Source: a virus. Taken from it: DNA of 64,000 bases. Position 1 is the first letter of the stretch. Every line of letters starts with the position of its first letter. This document shows, piece by piece, positions 7,446-64,000 of the stretch. The DNA lies in IMG/VR virus record IMGVR_UViG_3300027763_000026, one strand, 5' to 3'. The notes under the pieces were generated by a model. It searched no databases, had not been told where the DNA came from, and saw nothing but the letters and a program-made list of their open reading frames with translations. Both the position numbers and the translations under genes were made by a program.

Positions 7446-7832
7446 GGGCCCGTACTGGTTTCGATTTTAAAGAAATAAATTGAAATGCAAGTGGAGGTTG
7501 AATCGAGGACTCCTTAAAAAGTTTCAATTTATATTAACTGCCAAAACAGCAAAATATAAAGGTCATATTTCAGCAAGAGTTTCTCTTGTTGAGATGACCG
7601 CTTCTGTAGCTTAAGTTACAGCGTGATACCCTTGACACATCTATTGGGATATTGCGTAATTAGATGTCTTATTATTAGTAGTTTTTTTATTCTATTAATA
7701 TTAAGTATCAAAAATAAAATCGCTGAGTATGTTTGCTCTTTATCTATACAAAGCTAAAAACAAAAAGAACTAAACTTGTAGTATTTTAATTTAGATTTTT
7801 AAAAGACAGAGGTTCAATTCCTCTCGGGTCCA
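7446..7832 (+). ncRNA. ssrA: tmRNA (CCA not encoded)
   Basis: 5' GGGCCCGTACTGGTTTCGA; acceptor stem GGGCCCG/CGGGTCC-A with the G3-U70 Ala identity pair; T arm AGAGG-TTCAATT-CCTCT; internal tag ORF. Confidence 0.92.
7540..7614 (+). other. tmRNA tag reading frame: (A)AKTAKYKGHISARVSLVEMTASVA*
   Basis: TTAACT upstream of resume codon GCC at 7540; TAA at 7612-7614; hydrophobic Ala-ending C terminus. Confidence 0.7.
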
Positions 7833-7899
7833 AGTAAACGAATCCCTCTGTCTGCATTTTTATTAGAAAAAACGTATCGTAACTATATATAATCCTTAT

Positions 7900-16186: not shown

Positions 16187-17251
16187 TTAGAGTTTTAAAT
16201 CACCAAAATCTTCGTCTTCTATGTCCGTCTTCCTTGCGCCCACTTTATAGCTTGATATCTCAGTTTCTTGTGGCGCAACTTGCACTTTGCTACTGTCCAA
16301 ATAGCTGTCATGCCATCCAGCTATAGGATTATCTTTTTGATTAAATATCTTCTTATAGCCTAAGCTTCTTAATCGGCTATCACAAAGCCACTTAGAGTAG
16401 CCATCTAGAACGTCAGCATTTAATCCAAGTAAACTGCCTTTACTAAAGAGATACTGAGACCATTCACTTTCGTTCTTCGCGGCCTGTTCATAGAAAGCGT
16501 ATATCTTATCTTCATTTTTCTTTACAATAGATGTAAAGCCTTCTTTATCTTCGTCACGAAGTATCTTCAATAGATTTTGAGAGGTAGCAAAATGCAAAGC
16601 TTCATCTCTTTGAATGAATTTTATAATTTTAGAATTACCTTCCATCTTTCCCCGATATCCAAAATAAAAAGAACAAGCAAAAGAAACATAAAACACGAGT
16701 CCTTCCATTACATTAATAGAAAGAATAGCATCAAAAATCTTTTGTTTAGGGTCTTTCTTTTCGTCGCTACCAAGAATTTTATCAAAATTATCTCTAATTA
16801 ATTGAGCGCGACCTGTTATTTCTTTATCCTCCATGATACTATCAAAAAATTTAGTAGGATCTGGATGAACATTATTTAAAAGATAAGAATAAGAATAACT
16901 ATGAATGCCTTCAAATTGAGCCCAAGTATTCATGCATATTTCTAGCTCTGGATTACTAACGTAATCTTTTAATGAGTGTATGCTTCTAGATAACATACTA
17001 TCTCCAAGAGTTTGGAATCTTAAATTACTATCAAATACAAATCTTTCGGTGTCAGTCAAATTTTTATAATCGCTTCTATCTTTTCCTAAAGCTATTTCAT
17101 GTGGCCACCAGAAGTTTTCATTTTGTTTTTTGAATAGCTCAAAAAATATTGGATATTTAAACCTATCATATCTTTGCAAATTTAAATCCTCGCCAAGAAA
17201 CAATGGTTGTTTAGTAAAGTCTACGTTTTTAAAATTTAATACTGTTTTCAT
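16187..17251 (-). CDS. nrdB: Ribonucleotide reductase class Ia beta subunit
   Basis: FWWPHE, EGIHSYSY, EGLVFY, RDEALH. Confidence 0.95.
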   Translation of the reverse strand: MKTVLNFKNVDFTKQPLFLGEDLNLQRYDRFKYPIFFELFKKQNENFWWPHEIALGKDRSDYKNLTDTERFVFDSNLRFQTLGDSMLSRSIHSLKDYVSNPELEICMNTWAQFEGIHSYSYSYLLNNVHPDPTKFFDSIMEDKEITGRAQLIRDNFDKILGSDEKKDPKQKIFDAILSINVMEGLVFYVSFACSFYFGYRGKMEGNSKIIKFIQRDEALHFATSQNLLKILRDEDKEGFTSIVKKNEDKIYAFYEQAAKNESEWSQYLFSKGSLLGLNADVLDGYSKWLCDSRLRSLGYKKIFNQKDNPIAGWHDSYLDSSKVQVAPQETEISSYKVGARKTDIEDEDFGDLKL

Positions 17252-19494
17252 AATTTACAAGCTCCACTAGCACAGTCATCTTCTTTTTGTGTCATAGACT
17301 GCTCTTTATCTCCATCGTCTGTATTATTATAATACAAACTAATTAGTCCAAGGCTATAAGCATACATTATTTCTTTCATAACTTTGCTGTCTGGTAATAT
17401 ATGATTTTCATAGTGACTGTAATTATAATACACATTAGTAGAAATAGCCATATCAATATATTTTTGAATTACTGCGTTTATTTTTAATAAACCTAAATTA
17501 TCTTTAAAATCAAAAGCTAATTCATAATTATGATCATATTTTCCAATTCCTGGAACCATAACTGGAAGTTTACCCATTTTGCTTGTTTTATAAGTAATAA
17601 GACTACGAATAGGCTCGACACCGTTTGTAGAAGATTGAATTACAGAGCTACTCTCACAAGGCATACAGGAGGATAATGTCGAATGTCTTAATCCAAATTC
17701 TTTGATATCTTTTCTTAGTTTCTCCCAATCAAGTGATAGTTTTCTTTTTACTAATTCGTCTACTTTATCTTTGTATGTATCTATTGGCAAGATACCTTTA
17801 GAGTATTTTGTATTTTCAAATTTTTCGCATCTGCCTTTTTCTTTAGACAATTGGCAACTACTCTTTAAAAGATAGTATTGAAAATGCTCCATCCACTCAT
17901 CTATTACCGAAAGAGACTTATCTGAATTATATTTTAATTCATTTTTAGCAAGAAAAGCTGCAAGATTGGTGATTCCAACTCCAAGGCTTCTACGCTTTTT
18001 AGCAAAATTTTCTGCTGCGAAATTGAAGTAGTCTTGAATGTCTATAATTTCTTCAAGGAATCTTACAATTAAATCACAAACTTTTTCTAAATCTTGCCAG
18101 TTTTTTACTTCTAACATATTAACTGCCGAAAGAATACACATACCAATTTCTGCATCTTTATCATGGTAGTCATTAAGTGGAATTGTGGGGTGAATAACTT
18201 CTGTGCAAAGATTGCTCATGGTTACTTTATCAGACCAAGCTCCATGATTGTTAGCATGATCTACATTTAGAATATAAATTCTTCCAGTTTCAACTCTTTC
18301 TTTTATTATAAGAGAGAATAATTTACGAGCAGAAATTTTCTTTTTAATTTTTAGTTTCTTAGACTCGCATTCTTTATAAATCTTATCAAAGTCTTTTGTC
18401 CCCCAAGCTTCATAAAGCTCTGGCACTTCGGCAGTATTAAATAGCATGATATCTTCATCTTTTAAAACCCTATCATAAAATAATTTGCTCATACCAACCG
18501 TATAATCAAGTTTACGAACTCGATTGTCGTCTGTTCCAGCATTATTTTTCAATACTACAACATCTTCAATTTCGTAATGCCACCATTGTATATTGCAGGT
18601 TGCACTTCCTCCTCTTAAACCATTTTGTTGCCAAGCTTTCACGCTACTCTCATAAATTTTTAAGAATGGAATTAACCCCGTATGGACGACTTCCCCATTT
18701 TTAATTGGGGCGCCAATTGCTCTAATCCTGCTAACATCAATTCCAATTCCACATCTATTTGCCGTAGCCATACTAACTGCCGTAGCACTAGCAGTAATGC
18801 TTTCTTTCGTATCGTCTACCCCAATCAAGCAACAACTCGCGTAATTTTTACTAGAAGTTCTTACTCCTGCCATAATTGGAGTTGGCAAATTTATTTTATG
18901 CTTACTAATAGCATCGTAAAATTTCCTTACATAAGTCAATCTAGTTTCGCTTGGATAATTTATAAATGCATAAGCAGAGATTAATATATAAGCAAACTGT
19001 GGTGTTTCGTAAATTTGTTGGGTAGTTCTATTTTTTATTAAATATTTATCACATAATTGTTTTATACCAGCATAGGTAAAGATAAAGTCTCTTTCGTGAT
19101 CTATAATTTCGCCCAGTTTATTTATTTCATCTTCTGTGTATTTTTCTAGGATAGCAGGGTCATATATCTTATTTTTTAAACCATTATTTATAAATTCAGA
19201 AAGTCTTGGCGCATGTTTGCCCTTCCAAACGTCTTTTCTTAATTGATAATTAAGAAGCCTAGCTGCAACATATTGATAGTTTGGTTTTTCTATAGAAATT
19301 AAATTTGCCGCACTTTCAATCAATAAGCTATGAATTTCTTTTGTATGAACTCCATCGGTTATATTAATTTTAGCATTTATCTCTATGTCTGTTAAACTAA
19401 CTCCAGAATATCCATCTATAGCCCAATTAATAACTTTGTTAATTTTTTCTATATCAAATTTTTCAGTAGTATTATTTCTTTTCTTAACATTCAT
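17248..19494 (-). CDS. nrdA: Ribonucleotide reductase class Ia alpha subunit with ATP-cone
   Basis: VKKRN ATP-cone, PTPIM, SCCL, SNLCTE, MPCESSS, TNGVEP, C-terminal CASGAC. Confidence 0.95.
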   Translation of the reverse strand: MNVKKRNNTTEKFDIEKINKVINWAIDGYSGVSLTDIEINAKINITDGVHTKEIHSLLIESAANLISIEKPNYQYVAARLLNYQLRKDVWKGKHAPRLSEFINNGLKNKIYDPAILEKYTEDEINKLGEIIDHERDFIFTYAGIKQLCDKYLIKNRTTQQIYETPQFAYILISAYAFINYPSETRLTYVRKFYDAISKHKINLPTPIMAGVRTSSKNYASCCLIGVDDTKESITASATAVSMATANRCGIGIDVSRIRAIGAPIKNGEVVHTGLIPFLKIYESSVKAWQQNGLRGGSATCNIQWWHYEIEDVVVLKNNAGTDDNRVRKLDYTVGMSKLFYDRVLKDEDIMLFNTAEVPELYEAWGTKDFDKIYKECESKKLKIKKKISARKLFSLIIKERVETGRIYILNVDHANNHGAWSDKVTMSNLCTEVIHPTIPLNDYHDKDAEIGMCILSAVNMLEVKNWQDLEKVCDLIVRFLEEIIDIQDYFNFAAENFAKKRRSLGVGITNLAAFLAKNELKYNSDKSLSVIDEWMEHFQYYLLKSSCQLSKEKGRCEKFENTKYSKGILPIDTYKDKVDELVKRKLSLDWEKLRKDIKEFGLRHSTLSSCMPCESSSVIQSSTNGVEPIRSLITYKTSKMGKLPVMVPGIGKYDHNYELAFDFKDNLGLLKINAVIQKYIDMAISTNVYYNYSHYENHILPDSKVMKEIMYAYSLGLISLYYNNTDDGDKEQSMTQKEDDCASGACKL

Positions 19495-19620
19495 TTTATA
19501 TAAAATAGGGGGAACTCTATATTACAGTGTTTTTTAAAATTTAAAAAGAAAAAAATTTAGTTTTATTAACATTTATTATTTAACTCAATAAAGAGTGTAC
19601 TAATCTGTATTTTTATAACA

Positions 19621-19905
19621 ACTTCCCAATGAGCTCTTCAAAGCGGAGCTTTCCCTGTGCTTTGCGCAGGGTTGGTGAAAGCCTATTAGTTCTACTTCCC
19701 AATTGAGTCTGTAAACCTTTCGGTCCCTAACACTTATCGGATGTCGGTAGGATCATCCATCGCGTGTTAGCCCTTACACCTACACTCCCACTATTGCTAG
19801 TGGTTTCTGGGTCGCAAGCTCCTAAGCGTTGCCCACGTTTCGAACTAATGAGACTTATCGTTTAACGGAGTACGACAAACCTTATCCGCTAATTGGGCGG
19901 TATGT
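19621..19905. ncRNA. Unidentified GC-rich, highly structured RNA-like element (candidate ncRNA or nrdAB leader)
   Basis: 30/60 GC in line 19801 versus 10/60 in line 19561; at least 8 stems; no credible ORF; consensus promoter at 19912-19940 on the minus strand. Confidence 0.7.
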
Positions 19906-19911
19906 ATTTAT

Positions 19912-19940
19912 ATAGTATTATACATATTTACATTTGTCAA
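19912..19940 (-). promoter_or_regulatory. Sigma-70 promoter driving the structured RNA
   Basis: TTGACA-17-TACTAT; predicted +1 near 19905 is not a start codon. Confidence 0.7.
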
Positions 19941-19969
19941 ATAAATTTAATTTAATTATAATGTAAATA

Positions 19970-20713
19970 ATGAAAAAAGTTTCCTATTGTACAGTATGCT
20001 ATGGTAGATTATGGCAATTAGCGTTTACATTAAAATCTAATTTAGATAACCTTAAAGAAGACGAAGAGCTTGTTCTGGTAGACTATAATAGTCCAGATGA
20101 TACTATGATTTTTGTTTTAGGCACAAAAACTTTTAAAAAATATATAGAGGAAGAAAAATTAAAATTTATAAAAGTCTTAGATGTAAAAGAGTATAATTGT
20201 CCAAAATCTAAAAATATAGCTCATAGGTTAGGCTCTGGAGAAATTTTAGTAAATTTAGATGTGGATAATTTTTTATTAGGAATGCGGGAAGAAATCGATA
20301 AAGCTTTTAATAAAAATAAAAATAGTTTACTTCATATGTATTTTGAACCACAAGGAGGGTCTTTTGGCAGGATAGCTTTGACAAAAAGTAATTTTTATAA
20401 ATTGGGCGGTTACGATGAAGATCTATTGGAACATTCACATCAGGATACAGACTTAATCAATAGAGCAAAGGCATTGGGCATGACCTATGGCCTTCGTCCT
20501 TTAGAATCTGAAGTTATAGCTAATAACCTTTATGCGAAAAATAGATACTTAAGAGAGGACTGGTTTAGCATGCAACAAAAAAATAGAAAAATTAGTCAAG
20601 AAAATATTATGAATGGAAAATTTGTAGCTAATAAGAGTAAAGGTTGGGGAGAGTGTAAAATCATAGAGAACTACGATAAGGATATTATAAATTTAAAAGC
20701 TATACGCCCATAA
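19970..20713 (+). CDS. GT-A glycosyltransferase (GT2/GT7-like)
   Basis: LVDYNSPD, NLDVD, GGYDEDL...QDTDL. Confidence 0.75.
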   Translation: MKKVSYCTVCYGRLWQLAFTLKSNLDNLKEDEELVLVDYNSPDDTMIFVLGTKTFKKYIEEEKLKFIKVLDVKEYNCPKSKNIAHRLGSGEILVNLDVDNFLLGMREEIDKAFNKNKNSLLHMYFEPQGGSFGRIALTKSNFYKLGGYDEDLLEHSHQDTDLINRAKALGMTYGLRPLESEVIANNLYAKNRYLREDWFSMQQKNRKISQENIMNGKFVANKSKGWGECKIIENYDKDIINLKAIRP

Positions 20714-63429: not shown

Positions 63430-64000
63430 TTATATTCCTGCAAATAAATAAACATATCTCATTTGCCCGCCTACGCATACATACATTCTTCTAGGCGAAA
63501 ATGTTACTCCTCCATAAACAAAAGTATTTCCAATTAAAAATCCAGTTGACCCAGTAGCGCCAGTAGCTCCTCTTGGCCCAGTAGCCCCCGTTGCACCAGT
63601 TGCCCCAGTAGCTCCAGTAGATCCAGTTGCCCCAGTAGCTCCAGTGTTTCCTTTGGGTCCAGTTGAACCAGTTATAGCTATTGCAATCCCTTGTGGTCCT
63701 GTTGCTCCAGTCGCTCCAGTCGCTCCAGTCGCTCCAGTCGCTCCAGTTGTTCCAGGAAGTCCAACTAATACTGGGCCTGTAGCTCCAGTAGAACCTTTTG
63801 GTCCTGTAGCTCCAGTAGGCCCAGTTGCTCCAGTAGCTCCAGTAGGCCCAGTTGCCCCAGTAGCCCCAGTTGCTCCAGTAGATCCTTTGGGTCCTGTCGC
63901 ACCACTAGCACCAGTTGCCCCAGTAGCCCCAGTAGCCCCAGTTGCTCCAGTAGCCCCAGTTGCTCCTTTTGTGCCAGCAGGCCCTGTTGCACCAGTTGCC
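63430..64000 (-). CDS. Collagen-like (Gly-Ala-Thr)n protein; 5' end lies beyond the window
   Basis: Not in the ORF track. Frame reads [13 protein letters not shown]...[12 protein letters not shown]...YLFAGI* with TAA at 63432-63430; 9-bp tandem repeats. Confidence 0.85.

What the first reader, a model, noticed from the sequence alone, without database searches (positions are those of the whole stretch)
19594..19940. Unidentified ~280-nt structured RNA with its own promoter directly upstream of nrdA
Seen: a GC island (30/60 vs 10/60 in a flanking line) with no ORF. Local stems: 19632-36/19646-50, 19653-60/19664-71, 19715-24, 19727-33/19764-70 enclosing 19739-43/19754-58, 19788-19803 and 19886-19900. 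Crossing long-range complements: 19645-51/19816-22, 19685-92/19842-49, 19704-10/19851-57 and 19698-705/19890-97. These imply pseudoknots or alternative folds. ACTTCCCAAT is repeated (19621, 19694) and GATAAG occurs three times on the minus strand. A TTGACA-17-TACTAT promoter fires on the minus strand toward nrdA with no ATG at +1. The minus strand has GAAA/GCAA tetraloops and group-I-like fragments (AAUUAGCGGAUAAGG; AAGGUUUACAGACUC..GGGA) but no S element after them. Several G-U pairs and an AGTGTAC motif favour the plus strand instead, so the strand is unresolved. Inference: a new ncRNA, ribozyme-derived RNA or switch-like RNR leader.
Basis: partly seen in the sequence, partly recalled or inferred. 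Interest (0 to 1): 0.75.

Follow-up and report, generated by a model that had tools for sequence, protein, structure and literature searches.

The report
Stand-alone knotted phage RNA with twin repeats
The GC-rich island upstream of nrdA is a real folded RNA gene of about 290 bases with its own promoter, found in a group of aquatic T4-like phages and matching no catalogued RNA family; it is not an nrdA leader, and two of its 10-13-base stretches always stay identical to each other.

Summary
Window 19620-19905, minus strand, is an ORF-free GC island (45-50% GC against about 20% in the flanks). It folds into 12 helices plus a pseudoknot.

- **Structure:** compensatory changes across 61 distinct homologues in related phage contigs support the fold. 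94.9-97.4% of pair cells are paired, against 30-47% in slid controls.
- **Strand:** the strand is the minus strand. All 61 copies carry a TTGACA-17-TAnnAT promoter there, and many pairs are G-U.
- **Known families:** Rfam 15 gives no match for any of the three sequence classes. The group I intron reading has no support.
- **Not an nrdA leader:** in other phages the same RNA lies downstream of nrdB on the other strand, 5-10 kb away, or separated from nrdA by another gene.
- **Position:** in 6 of 6 long contigs it sits at the genome's divergent strand switch, at or near a local GC-skew minimum.
- **Twin repeats:** two purine-rich stretches about 70 nt apart are identical in 61 of 61 sequences but occur in 8 variants. 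No complementary partner was found.

My best guess, at about 0.3, is that copy 1 pairs with the template DNA of copy 2, as in ColE1 RNA II or a T4 origin R-loop. This scan noted the same family before on another genome (e1-5530590).

The parts
19935..19940 (-). -35 hexamer TTGACA of the RNA's promoter
   Evidence: exact in 58 of 61 homologues, always 17 nt (once 16) from the -10
19912..19917 (-). -10 hexamer TACTAT
   Evidence: TAnnAT in the great majority of homologues
19620..19905 (-). The RNA gene, about 286 nt. The inferred start is the conserved ACAUA at 19905; the 3' limit of conservation is the end of repeat copy 2.
   Evidence: nhmmer 19906-19620, E 3e-90; alignments A1 and A3; ends inferred, not mapped
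19886..19900 (-). P1 hairpin
   Evidence: 3 of 4 pairs change on both sides
19857..19876 (-). P2 hairpin
   Evidence: 2 of 5 pairs compensatory
19842..19856 (-). 5' strands of long-range helices P3 (19851-56) and P4 (19842-48)
   Evidence: these pair with 19679-84 and 19686-92; P4 is 100% paired with 5 of 7 pairs compensatory, P3 is 96% paired
19808..19835 (-). P5 (outer 4 bp plus inner 3-4 bp, with invariant GCAACG)
   Evidence: 100% paired, 5 of 7 pairs compensatory across classes
19788..19803 (-). P6 hairpin (GCAA loop)
   Evidence: 5 of 6 pairs compensatory
19779..19783 (-). Pseudoknot 5' strand GUAGG
   Evidence: pairs with CCUAC 19747-51 in the P9 loop; 97.6% paired; GC to CG in 17 sequences and AU to GC in 6
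19727..19770 (-). P8 enclosing P9; the P9 loop carries the pseudoknot 3' strand (19747-51); conserved AUAAGUG junction
   Evidence: P8 has 5 of 6 and P9 has 4 of 5 pairs compensatory
19715..19724 (-). P10 hairpin (GAAA loop), longer in classes 2 and 3
   Evidence: 3 of 3 pairs compensatory
19694..19703 (-). Twin repeat copy 1 (AUUGGGAAGU), between P10 and the 3' strand of P4
   Evidence: identical to copy 2 in 61 of 61 distinct sequences; 8 variants
19679..19692 (-). 3' strands of P4 (19686-92) and P3 (19679-84)
19632..19671 (-). P11 (19653-71) and P12 (19632-50) hairpins
   Evidence: P11 is 76% paired and P12 94%; these are the weakest helices
19621..19630 (-). Twin repeat copy 2, at the 3' limit of conservation
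   Evidence: the 60 nt that follow average 19% GC; no terminator
19934..19962 (+). Divergent promoter TTGTCA-17-TATAAT. Its -35 overlaps the RNA's -35 back to back. It drives the rightward gene block.
   Evidence: the same arrangement is seen in L060

Best explanation
Shown (about 0.95): this is a stand-alone, promoter-driven, non-coding RNA gene of about 290 nt on the minus strand. It has 12 helices and one pseudoknot. It belongs to a family with three sequence classes, found in a clade of aquatic phages related to pelagimyophages (T4-like phages of SAR11 bacteria). It is the first transcription unit on one side of the genome's main divergent promoter region. It is not an nrdA leader.

Inferred mechanism (about 0.3): the two identical purine-rich stretches are kept identical because copy 1, in the RNA, must pair with the complement of copy 2. 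The only complement that always exists is the gene's own template DNA strand. When RNA polymerase reaches copy 2, the folded body presents copy 1 to the unwound template. This nucleates a persistent RNA:DNA hybrid that extends into the very AT-rich DNA just downstream. The hybrid would fix the RNA's 3' end and could prime leading-strand DNA synthesis.

That is how ColE1 RNA II uses an upstream rG stretch and a template dC stretch. It is also how T4 oriF and oriG use a promoter plus a DNA-unwinding element.
For: Real RNA and its strand:
- 18 of 80 nrdA loci have a BLASTN homologue.
- 61 distinct full-length sequences were collected.
- On a structure-blind MAFFT alignment, 65 pairs are 94.9% paired and 21 have double changes. 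Slid controls give 32-47% paired and 2-5 double changes.
- On the model-fitted alignment of all classes, 33 pairs are 97.4% paired and 25 are compensatory.
- The promoter is present in 61 of 61.

Stand-alone gene:
- Class 3 lies downstream of nrdB on the other strand with its own promoter.
- It lies 5-10 kb from nrdA in three contigs.
- L059 has a gene between the RNA and nrdA.
- L003 (NrdA 98% identical) has an ORF at the site instead.

Mechanism:
- The twins are identical in 61 of 61 sequences in 8 variants.
- No conserved complementary segment exists inside the RNA.
- No complement was found in the window or in 5 related contigs.
- Copy 2 is the 3' limit of conservation, and no terminator follows it.
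- The 60 nt after copy 2 average 19% GC, against 29% for ORF-free windows.
- The twin core is 79% purine, against 57% for the whole RNA.
- The gene sits at the divergent strand switch in 6 of 6 long contigs. The local cumulative GC-skew minimum is within 0.4 kb in 4 of them.
- Precedents (the ColE1 rG/dC interaction and T4 oriF/oriG R-loops) are as summarised in PMC4412123.
Against:
- GC skew and gene orientation are coupled, so the position does not by itself mark an origin.
- The six contigs share synteny and are not independent.
- AT-rich DNA after a gene is ordinary in this genome.
- A 220-nt pseudoknotted body with invariant junctions is more than the known T4 origin transcripts have.
- The marine relatives HTVC008M and Mosig lack the RNA and the divergent layout, so it is not essential to the wider group.
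- Invasion of the template strand by an upstream RNA segment has, to my knowledge, only the ColE1 precedent.
Confidence: 0.3

Rival explanations
1. Trans-acting RNA. The two single-stranded purine-rich stretches are twin seeds (or a decoy) that pair with one co-evolving partner RNA of the phage or host. The folded body is a scaffold.
For: Identity with drift is what two sites for one partner would show. No internal partner exists. Early expression from a consensus promoter. Predicted accessibility is moderate: mean unpaired probability 0.62 for copy 1 and 0.49 for copy 2, against 0.42 overall.
Against: No exact or near complement in the 64-kb window or in five related contigs of 47-83 kb. Most variants differ by transitions that a fixed partner would tolerate as wobble pairs, so the need for concerted change is unexplained. 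A host partner cannot be tested here.
Confidence: 0.22
2. Two binding sites for one sequence-specific protein. These could act at the RNA level, like nutL/nutR boxB sites that co-evolve with N. They could also act at the DNA level, like iterons that co-evolve with an initiator protein at an origin.
For: Direct repeats that are identical within a genome and differ between relatives are typical of nut sites and iterons (my own knowledge). The position at the divergent switch fits an origin.
Against: There are eight variants among phages whose NrdA is 80-98% identical. One variant arose in a phage 98% identical to the window's. Each would need a matching protein change. There are only two copies. 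Their spacing of 65-75 bp is not in helical phase. No constant neighbouring protein gene was found.
Confidence: 0.12
3. Template with copy-choice. A polymerase copies the roughly 70-nt unit, and the nascent strand jumps from one repeat to the other. Known parallels are the ACA motifs of DRT2 (a defence-associated reverse transcriptase with its own ncRNA template), coronavirus TRS-L/TRS-B, and telomerase realignment.
For: Identity of the two ends of a unit is the defining need of such jumps. The earlier scan report e1-5530590 reached this reading.
Against: No RVT_1 reverse transcriptase in five related contigs that are 64-87% complete. The unit length varies from 65 to 75 nt and is not a multiple of 3. 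No copy-number variants of the unit occur among 61 sequences.
Confidence: 0.08
4. Self-processing or ribozyme RNA. The two identical stretches are equivalent substrates of one active site, for 3'-end trimming, excision or circularisation of the roughly 70-nt segment.
For: An ornate pseudoknotted fold with invariant junction nucleotides. No terminator, so the 3' end needs another mechanism.
Against: No internal guide complementary to the repeats. No match to any ribozyme family in Rfam.
Confidence: 0.08
5. Cis-acting leader or riboswitch of nrdAB.
For: In the window and 24 or so relatives it lies 115 nt upstream of nrdA on the same strand.
Against: It is unlinked from nrdA, or opposite to it, in many relatives. 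nrdA keeps its own upstream motifs even where the RNA is 1.2 kb away. No expression platform is present. There is no cobalamin or other riboswitch match.
Confidence: 0.03

Closest known systems
ColE1 RNA II (plasmid primer RNA)
   Same: A promoter-driven, untranslated, elaborately folded RNA. An upstream RNA stretch has the same sequence as the RNA made near the 3' end, so it can pair with the template DNA there and nucleate a persistent hybrid (PMC4412123; the detail that the rG stretch lies far upstream is from my memory of Masukata and Tomizawa 1990).
   Different: No sequence or structural homology. The element is in a phage, not a plasmid. The repeat is 10-13 nt of mixed purines rather than a G run. 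No antisense regulator is seen. Hybrid formation, RNase H processing and priming are all untested.
T4 oriF/oriG origin transcripts
   Same: A T4-like phage, a promoter followed by easily melted AT-rich DNA, and an R-loop as leading-strand primer (PMC4412123).
   Different: T4 uses middle-mode promoters and short unstructured transcripts. Here a consensus sigma-70 promoter drives a 290-nt knotted RNA.
Large ornate RNAs of unknown function in phages and bacteria (GOLLD, ROOL, raiA, manA RF01745)
   Same: Stand-alone, large, pseudoknotted, carried by phages, GC-rich islands in AT-rich DNA. The marine relative HTVC008M carries a manA-like island (25.9 bits, below the 55.2 threshold).
   Different: No covariance-model match for the window or for classes 2 and 3, even at E<=10. 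None of those families is known to me to have twin identical stretches.
DRT2 ncRNA, telomerase RNA and coronavirus TRS elements
   Same: Short identical sequences at two places, so that the complement of one can re-pair with the other.
   Different: No reverse transcriptase in related contigs. No evidence of any copying.
Group I introns of T4-like nrd genes
   Same: The neighbourhood (nrd genes of a T4-like phage), size, and GNRA loops.
   Different: No RF00028 match. The pseudoknot topology differs. There are no exons, and nrdA is intact.

Membership tests
Any Rfam 15 family | Covariance-model score at or above the gathering threshold | tested here: not met
   Only the tmRNA at 7446-7833 passes in the window. 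At E<=10 the island gives only chance-level hits, and classes 2 and 3 likewise with no shared family.
Group I intron | P3-P9 core recognised by RF00028, with flanking exons of an interrupted gene | tested here: not met
   No hit at E<=10. nrdA is complete from residue 1, with ATP-cone profile positions 1-87. The RNA has its own promoter.
nrd leader or riboswitch (including cobalamin) | Constant position in the 5' UTR of the regulated gene | tested here: not met
   Class 3 is convergent with the nrdB-side genes. The RNA lies 5-10 kb away in three contigs. L059 has an intervening gene.
nrd leader or riboswitch (including cobalamin) | Expression platform (terminator, or sequestered start site) | tested here: not met
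   No terminator-like site on the RNA's strand. 115 nt carrying nrdA's own conserved motifs intervene.
manA RNA (RF01745) | Match to the family model | tested here: not met
   No hit for the window, L060 or L014 at E<=10. Only the marine relative HTVC008M gives a sub-threshold hit.
ColE1 RNA II-like primer RNA (works-like, not homology) | An upstream RNA stretch identical to the RNA at the 3' end, so complementary to the template DNA there | tested here: met
   Twins identical in 61 of 61 sequences; copy 2 is at the 3' limit of conservation.
ColE1 RNA II-like primer RNA (works-like, not homology) | Persistent RNA:DNA hybrid, with the 3' end used as a primer | not testable with these tools
   Needs DRIP, RNase H and replication assays.
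ColE1 RNA II-like primer RNA (works-like, not homology) | Location at a replication origin | tested here: inconclusive
   Divergent strand switch in 6 of 6 contigs and GC-skew minimum within 0.4 kb in 4 of 6. Skew is confounded with transcription direction.
Reverse-transcriptase template RNAs (retron, DRT2) | A reverse transcriptase gene beside the RNA or in the same genome | tested here: not met
   No RVT_1 in five related contigs; the control genomes did give hits. The neighbours are glycosyltransferase-like and nrd genes.

The most novel reading that the evidence does not exclude
The RNA is a phage replication-origin primer. Its knotted body delivers an internal purine stretch to the template strand of an identical downstream stretch. 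This starts an R-loop at the point from which the two halves of the genome diverge. It would be the first RNA II-like, structure-dependent origin RNA in a T4-like phage. It would also be the first case where RNA-to-DNA pairing is visible as 'identity covariation' between two parts of one transcript.
Probability: 0.22. Interest if true: 0.85.

Novelty: categorically new. Interest (0 to 1): 0.72.

Why it matters
Phages related to pelagimyophages and to Melnitz (a related phage of OM43 methylotrophs) infect some of the most abundant aquatic bacteria. Their non-coding content is almost unexplored. This is a large RNA with strong covariation support, a consensus promoter, a fixed place at the genome's divergence point, and no relative in Rfam.

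The twin stretches drift in sequence yet never differ from each other. That gives a rare, directly testable handle on mechanism: change one copy, then both. If the hybrid model is right, it links RNA structure to replication initiation in T4-like phages. If it is wrong, the twins still point to a partner or a copying step that is not yet known.

Tried and rejected
- **Phage isolates:** BLASTN of the island against 50,697 phage records found nothing.
- **Exact-pattern scans:** an exact 24-mer in IMG/VR found nothing. A core pattern gave 26 viral contigs, 29 metagenome contigs and 0 hits in 185,579 prokaryote genomes. The pattern is narrow, so absence from cells is weak evidence.
- **Model search beyond the clade:** model R1 found nothing in HTVC008M, Mosig or the two most distant contigs.
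- **Internal partner for the twins:** longest-complement scan, mutual information with APC (average-product) correction, and a column-wise scan over all 8 variants. The only hit was a weak, class-1-only match to the P4 strand.
- **External partner for the twins:** searches of the window, the window's tmRNA (energy no better than random) and five related contigs found none.
- **Reverse transcriptase:** none found.
- **Constant protein neighbour:** none found.
- **RNase P, 6S and SRP RNA:** considered from motif resemblance (GGGAAAGC), then dropped for lack of any Rfam hit and for the wrong order of elements.
- **Published catalogue:** the 2023 catalogue of IMG/VR candidate RNAs (PMC10690425, all 151 nt or shorter) may hold fragments of this RNA. 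Its supplementary files are not held, so this could not be checked.

Full report
**What is there**

Between nrdA (17248-19494, minus strand; Pfam ATP-cone, Ribonuc_red_lgN and lgC) and a glycosyltransferase-like gene (19970-20713, plus strand) lies a 475-nt stretch without an ORF. Its centre reaches 43-51% GC, in DNA that is 17-26% GC on both sides. Rfam 15 finds only the tmRNA at 7446-7833 in the whole window. With permissive filters at E<=10 it finds only chance-level hits in the island.

**Source**

No genome is held for the window. NrdA has 200 relatives in IMG/VR, and 80 loci were kept at 78-98% identity. The nearest isolates are Pelagibacter phages Mosig and HTVC008M at 52% identity. The window is therefore from an uncultured T4-like phage related to pelagimyophages (T4-like phages of SAR11 bacteria).

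**Homologues and classes**

- BLASTN finds the island in 18 of the 80 loci at 77-89% identity, always just upstream of nrdA except in L059.
- Profile searches add a second sequence class at the same site (L002, L014, L016, L049, L058) and an odd member, L067.
- They also add a third class that lies downstream of nrdB on the opposite strand.
- In all, 49 of 80 loci hold the RNA within 3 kb of nrdA.
- The contigs of three further loci hold it 5-10 kb away.
- The window has one copy, at 19906-19620 on the minus strand.
- A narrow core pattern finds 26 viral contigs and 29 metagenome contigs, and no prokaryote genome.
- A covariance model built from the class-1 core alone (R1, 149 positions) recovers classes 2 and 3 and L067 full length, at E from 9e-12 to 2e-4. 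It finds nothing in the complete genomes of HTVC008M and Mosig.

**Structure**

I derived the fold from the alignments: hairpins P1 and P2; long-range helices P3 and P4 that close a domain holding P5, P6, P8/P9 and P10; then P11 and P12. A pseudoknot joins GUAGG to CCUAC in the P9 loop. Window coordinates are in the parts list.

- On the MAFFT alignment of class 1, which was not fitted to any structure, 65 pairs are 94.9% paired and 21 pairs change on both sides. No shuffle of 500 reached these values. Partners slid by 1-3 columns give 32-47% paired and 2-5 such pairs.
- On the model-fitted alignment of all classes, 33 core pairs are 97.4% paired and 25 are compensatory. This includes the pseudoknot, with GC to CG in 17 sequences. 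That alignment leans towards the structure, so the MAFFT result is the more independent one.
- P11 and P12 are the weakest helices.

**Strand and ends**

All 61 distinct sequences have TTGACA (58 exact), 17 nt, then TAnnAT, ending 5-8 nt before a conserved ACAUA. In the window these are 19940-19935 and 19917-19912. Several pairs are mostly G-U (for example 16 of 18 and 14 of 18 sequences); they would be A-C on the other strand. The strand is therefore the minus strand. Conservation stops right after the second repeat. No terminator-like site follows it in the window or in L060. The ends are inferred, not mapped.

**Not an nrdA leader**

- Class 3 is convergent with the genes after nrdB and has its own promoter.
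- L059 has a 371-aa gene between the RNA and nrdA.
- L003, whose NrdA is 98% identical to the window's, has a 116-aa ORF at the site and no RNA.
- The 115 nt between the RNA and nrdA hold four conserved motifs. These stay with nrdA in L059, where the RNA is 1.2 kb away.

**Position in the genome**

In the window and in five long related contigs, the RNA is the first transcription unit on one side of the switch between leftward and rightward gene blocks. The local minimum of cumulative GC skew lies 0.1-0.4 kb from the RNA in four of them, and 5 and 8.5 kb away in the other two. The RNA's -35 hexamer overlaps, back to back, the -35 of a strong promoter for the opposite block. This holds both in the window and in L060. 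Flanking protein genes vary. The contigs share ancestry, and skew follows transcription direction, so this is a regularity and not proof of an origin.

**The twin repeats**

A stretch of 10-13 nt lies between P10 and the 3' strand of P4, and occurs again 65-75 nt later at the 3' end. The two are identical in 61 of 61 distinct sequences, yet occur in 8 variants:

| Variant | Sequence |
|---|---|
| 1 | AUUGGGAAGU |
| 2 | AUUGGGAAAU |
| 3 | AUUGGAAAGU |
| 4 | ACUGGGAAGU |
| 5 | AUUGGGAAAAU |
| 6 | AUUGGGAAGA |
| 7 | AAAGAAAAGU |
| 8 | AGGGAAAAAGU |

- Just upstream of the identical core, copy 1 always carries one extra base that copy 2 lacks. Blanket homogenisation by gene conversion is therefore unlikely, and selection for identity of the core is the better reading.
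- I found no conserved complementary segment inside the RNA.
- I found none in the window and none in five related contigs.
- The core is 79% purine. The next 60 nt average 19% GC, against 29% for ORF-free windows of these genomes.

**Mechanism**

Identity without a partner means that the complement of one copy must meet the other copy. The complement that is always at hand is the template DNA strand. That is the logic of ColE1 RNA II, where an rG stretch in the RNA pairs with a dC stretch of the template to start the persistent hybrid. T4 itself starts replication at oriF and oriG from a promoter plus an unwinding element through an R-loop (PMC4412123).

This reading would explain several features together: the position at the divergence point, the missing terminator, the AT-rich DNA downstream, and the purine bias. 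I hold it at about 0.3. Its rivals are a co-evolving trans partner, a co-evolving protein (nut-like or iteron-like sites), copy-choice templating and self-processing. Copy-choice templating was the reading of the earlier scan report e1-5530590, but no reverse transcriptase is present in five related contigs. All the rivals are listed with their tests.

**Novelty**

There is no Rfam family for any class and no hit among phage isolates. A 2023 catalogue of short IMG/VR candidate RNAs could hold fragments, and this could not be checked. The same family was already noted in this scan on another genome (e1-5530590). My results agree with that report and add the following:

- the three classes;
- the promoter in every member;
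- the position at the strand switch;
- the absence from marine relatives;
- the RNA:DNA reading.

Noticed in passing
window 7446-7833 (+): A one-piece tmRNA (107.6 bits). ARAGORN reads its tag as ending ...MTASVA, an unusual ending. Phage-borne tmRNAs are known in this group (PMC9004378).
   Followed up: no
window 19934-19970 (+): The promoter TTGTCA-17-TATAAT ends 8 nt before the ATG at 19970, so the glycosyltransferase-like gene may be leaderless or nearly so. Its -35 overlaps the RNA's -35 back to back. The same pairing is seen in L060 at 7812-7841.
   Followed up: partly
window 19519-19600 (-): Four conserved motifs lie upstream of nrdA: GTACAC, TGTTAATAA, TTTTTCTTTTT and ACTGTAATAT. They are kept in all aligned relatives, and also in L059 where the RNA is 1.2 kb away. 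They are probably a phage-specific promoter or operator of nrdAB. A loose likeness to NrdR boxes was not tested.
   Followed up: partly
L183 5037-5223 (+) (HTVC008M); Mosig 108148-108397 (-): The marine relatives have an ORF-free GC island with a TTGACA-17-TATAAT promoter. It matches Rfam manA (RF01745) below threshold (25.9 bits against 55.2, E 6e-5). The Mosig island looks homologous by eye. It is unrelated to the RNA studied here, by model R1.
   Followed up: partly
window and contigs G002, G005, G007, G008, G009: This clade has two long, oppositely oriented gene blocks with one divergent and one convergent point. HTVC008M and Mosig have nearly all genes on one strand.
   Followed up: partly
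window 19886-19900 (+): The complement of hairpin P1, followed by a T-rich run, scores as a terminator on the plus strand. It could stop antisense transcription entering the RNA gene.
   Followed up: no
window 63479-64000: A 150-nt window reaches 61% GC in a genome of 32% GC, inside an open-ended minus-strand frame at the window's edge.
   Followed up: no
L003 2573-2923; L059 1778-2893: The site upstream of nrdA is a hot spot for gene exchange. L003 has a 116-aa ORF in place of the RNA. L059 has a 371-aa ORF, not scanned against Pfam here, inserted between the RNA and nrdA.
   Followed up: no
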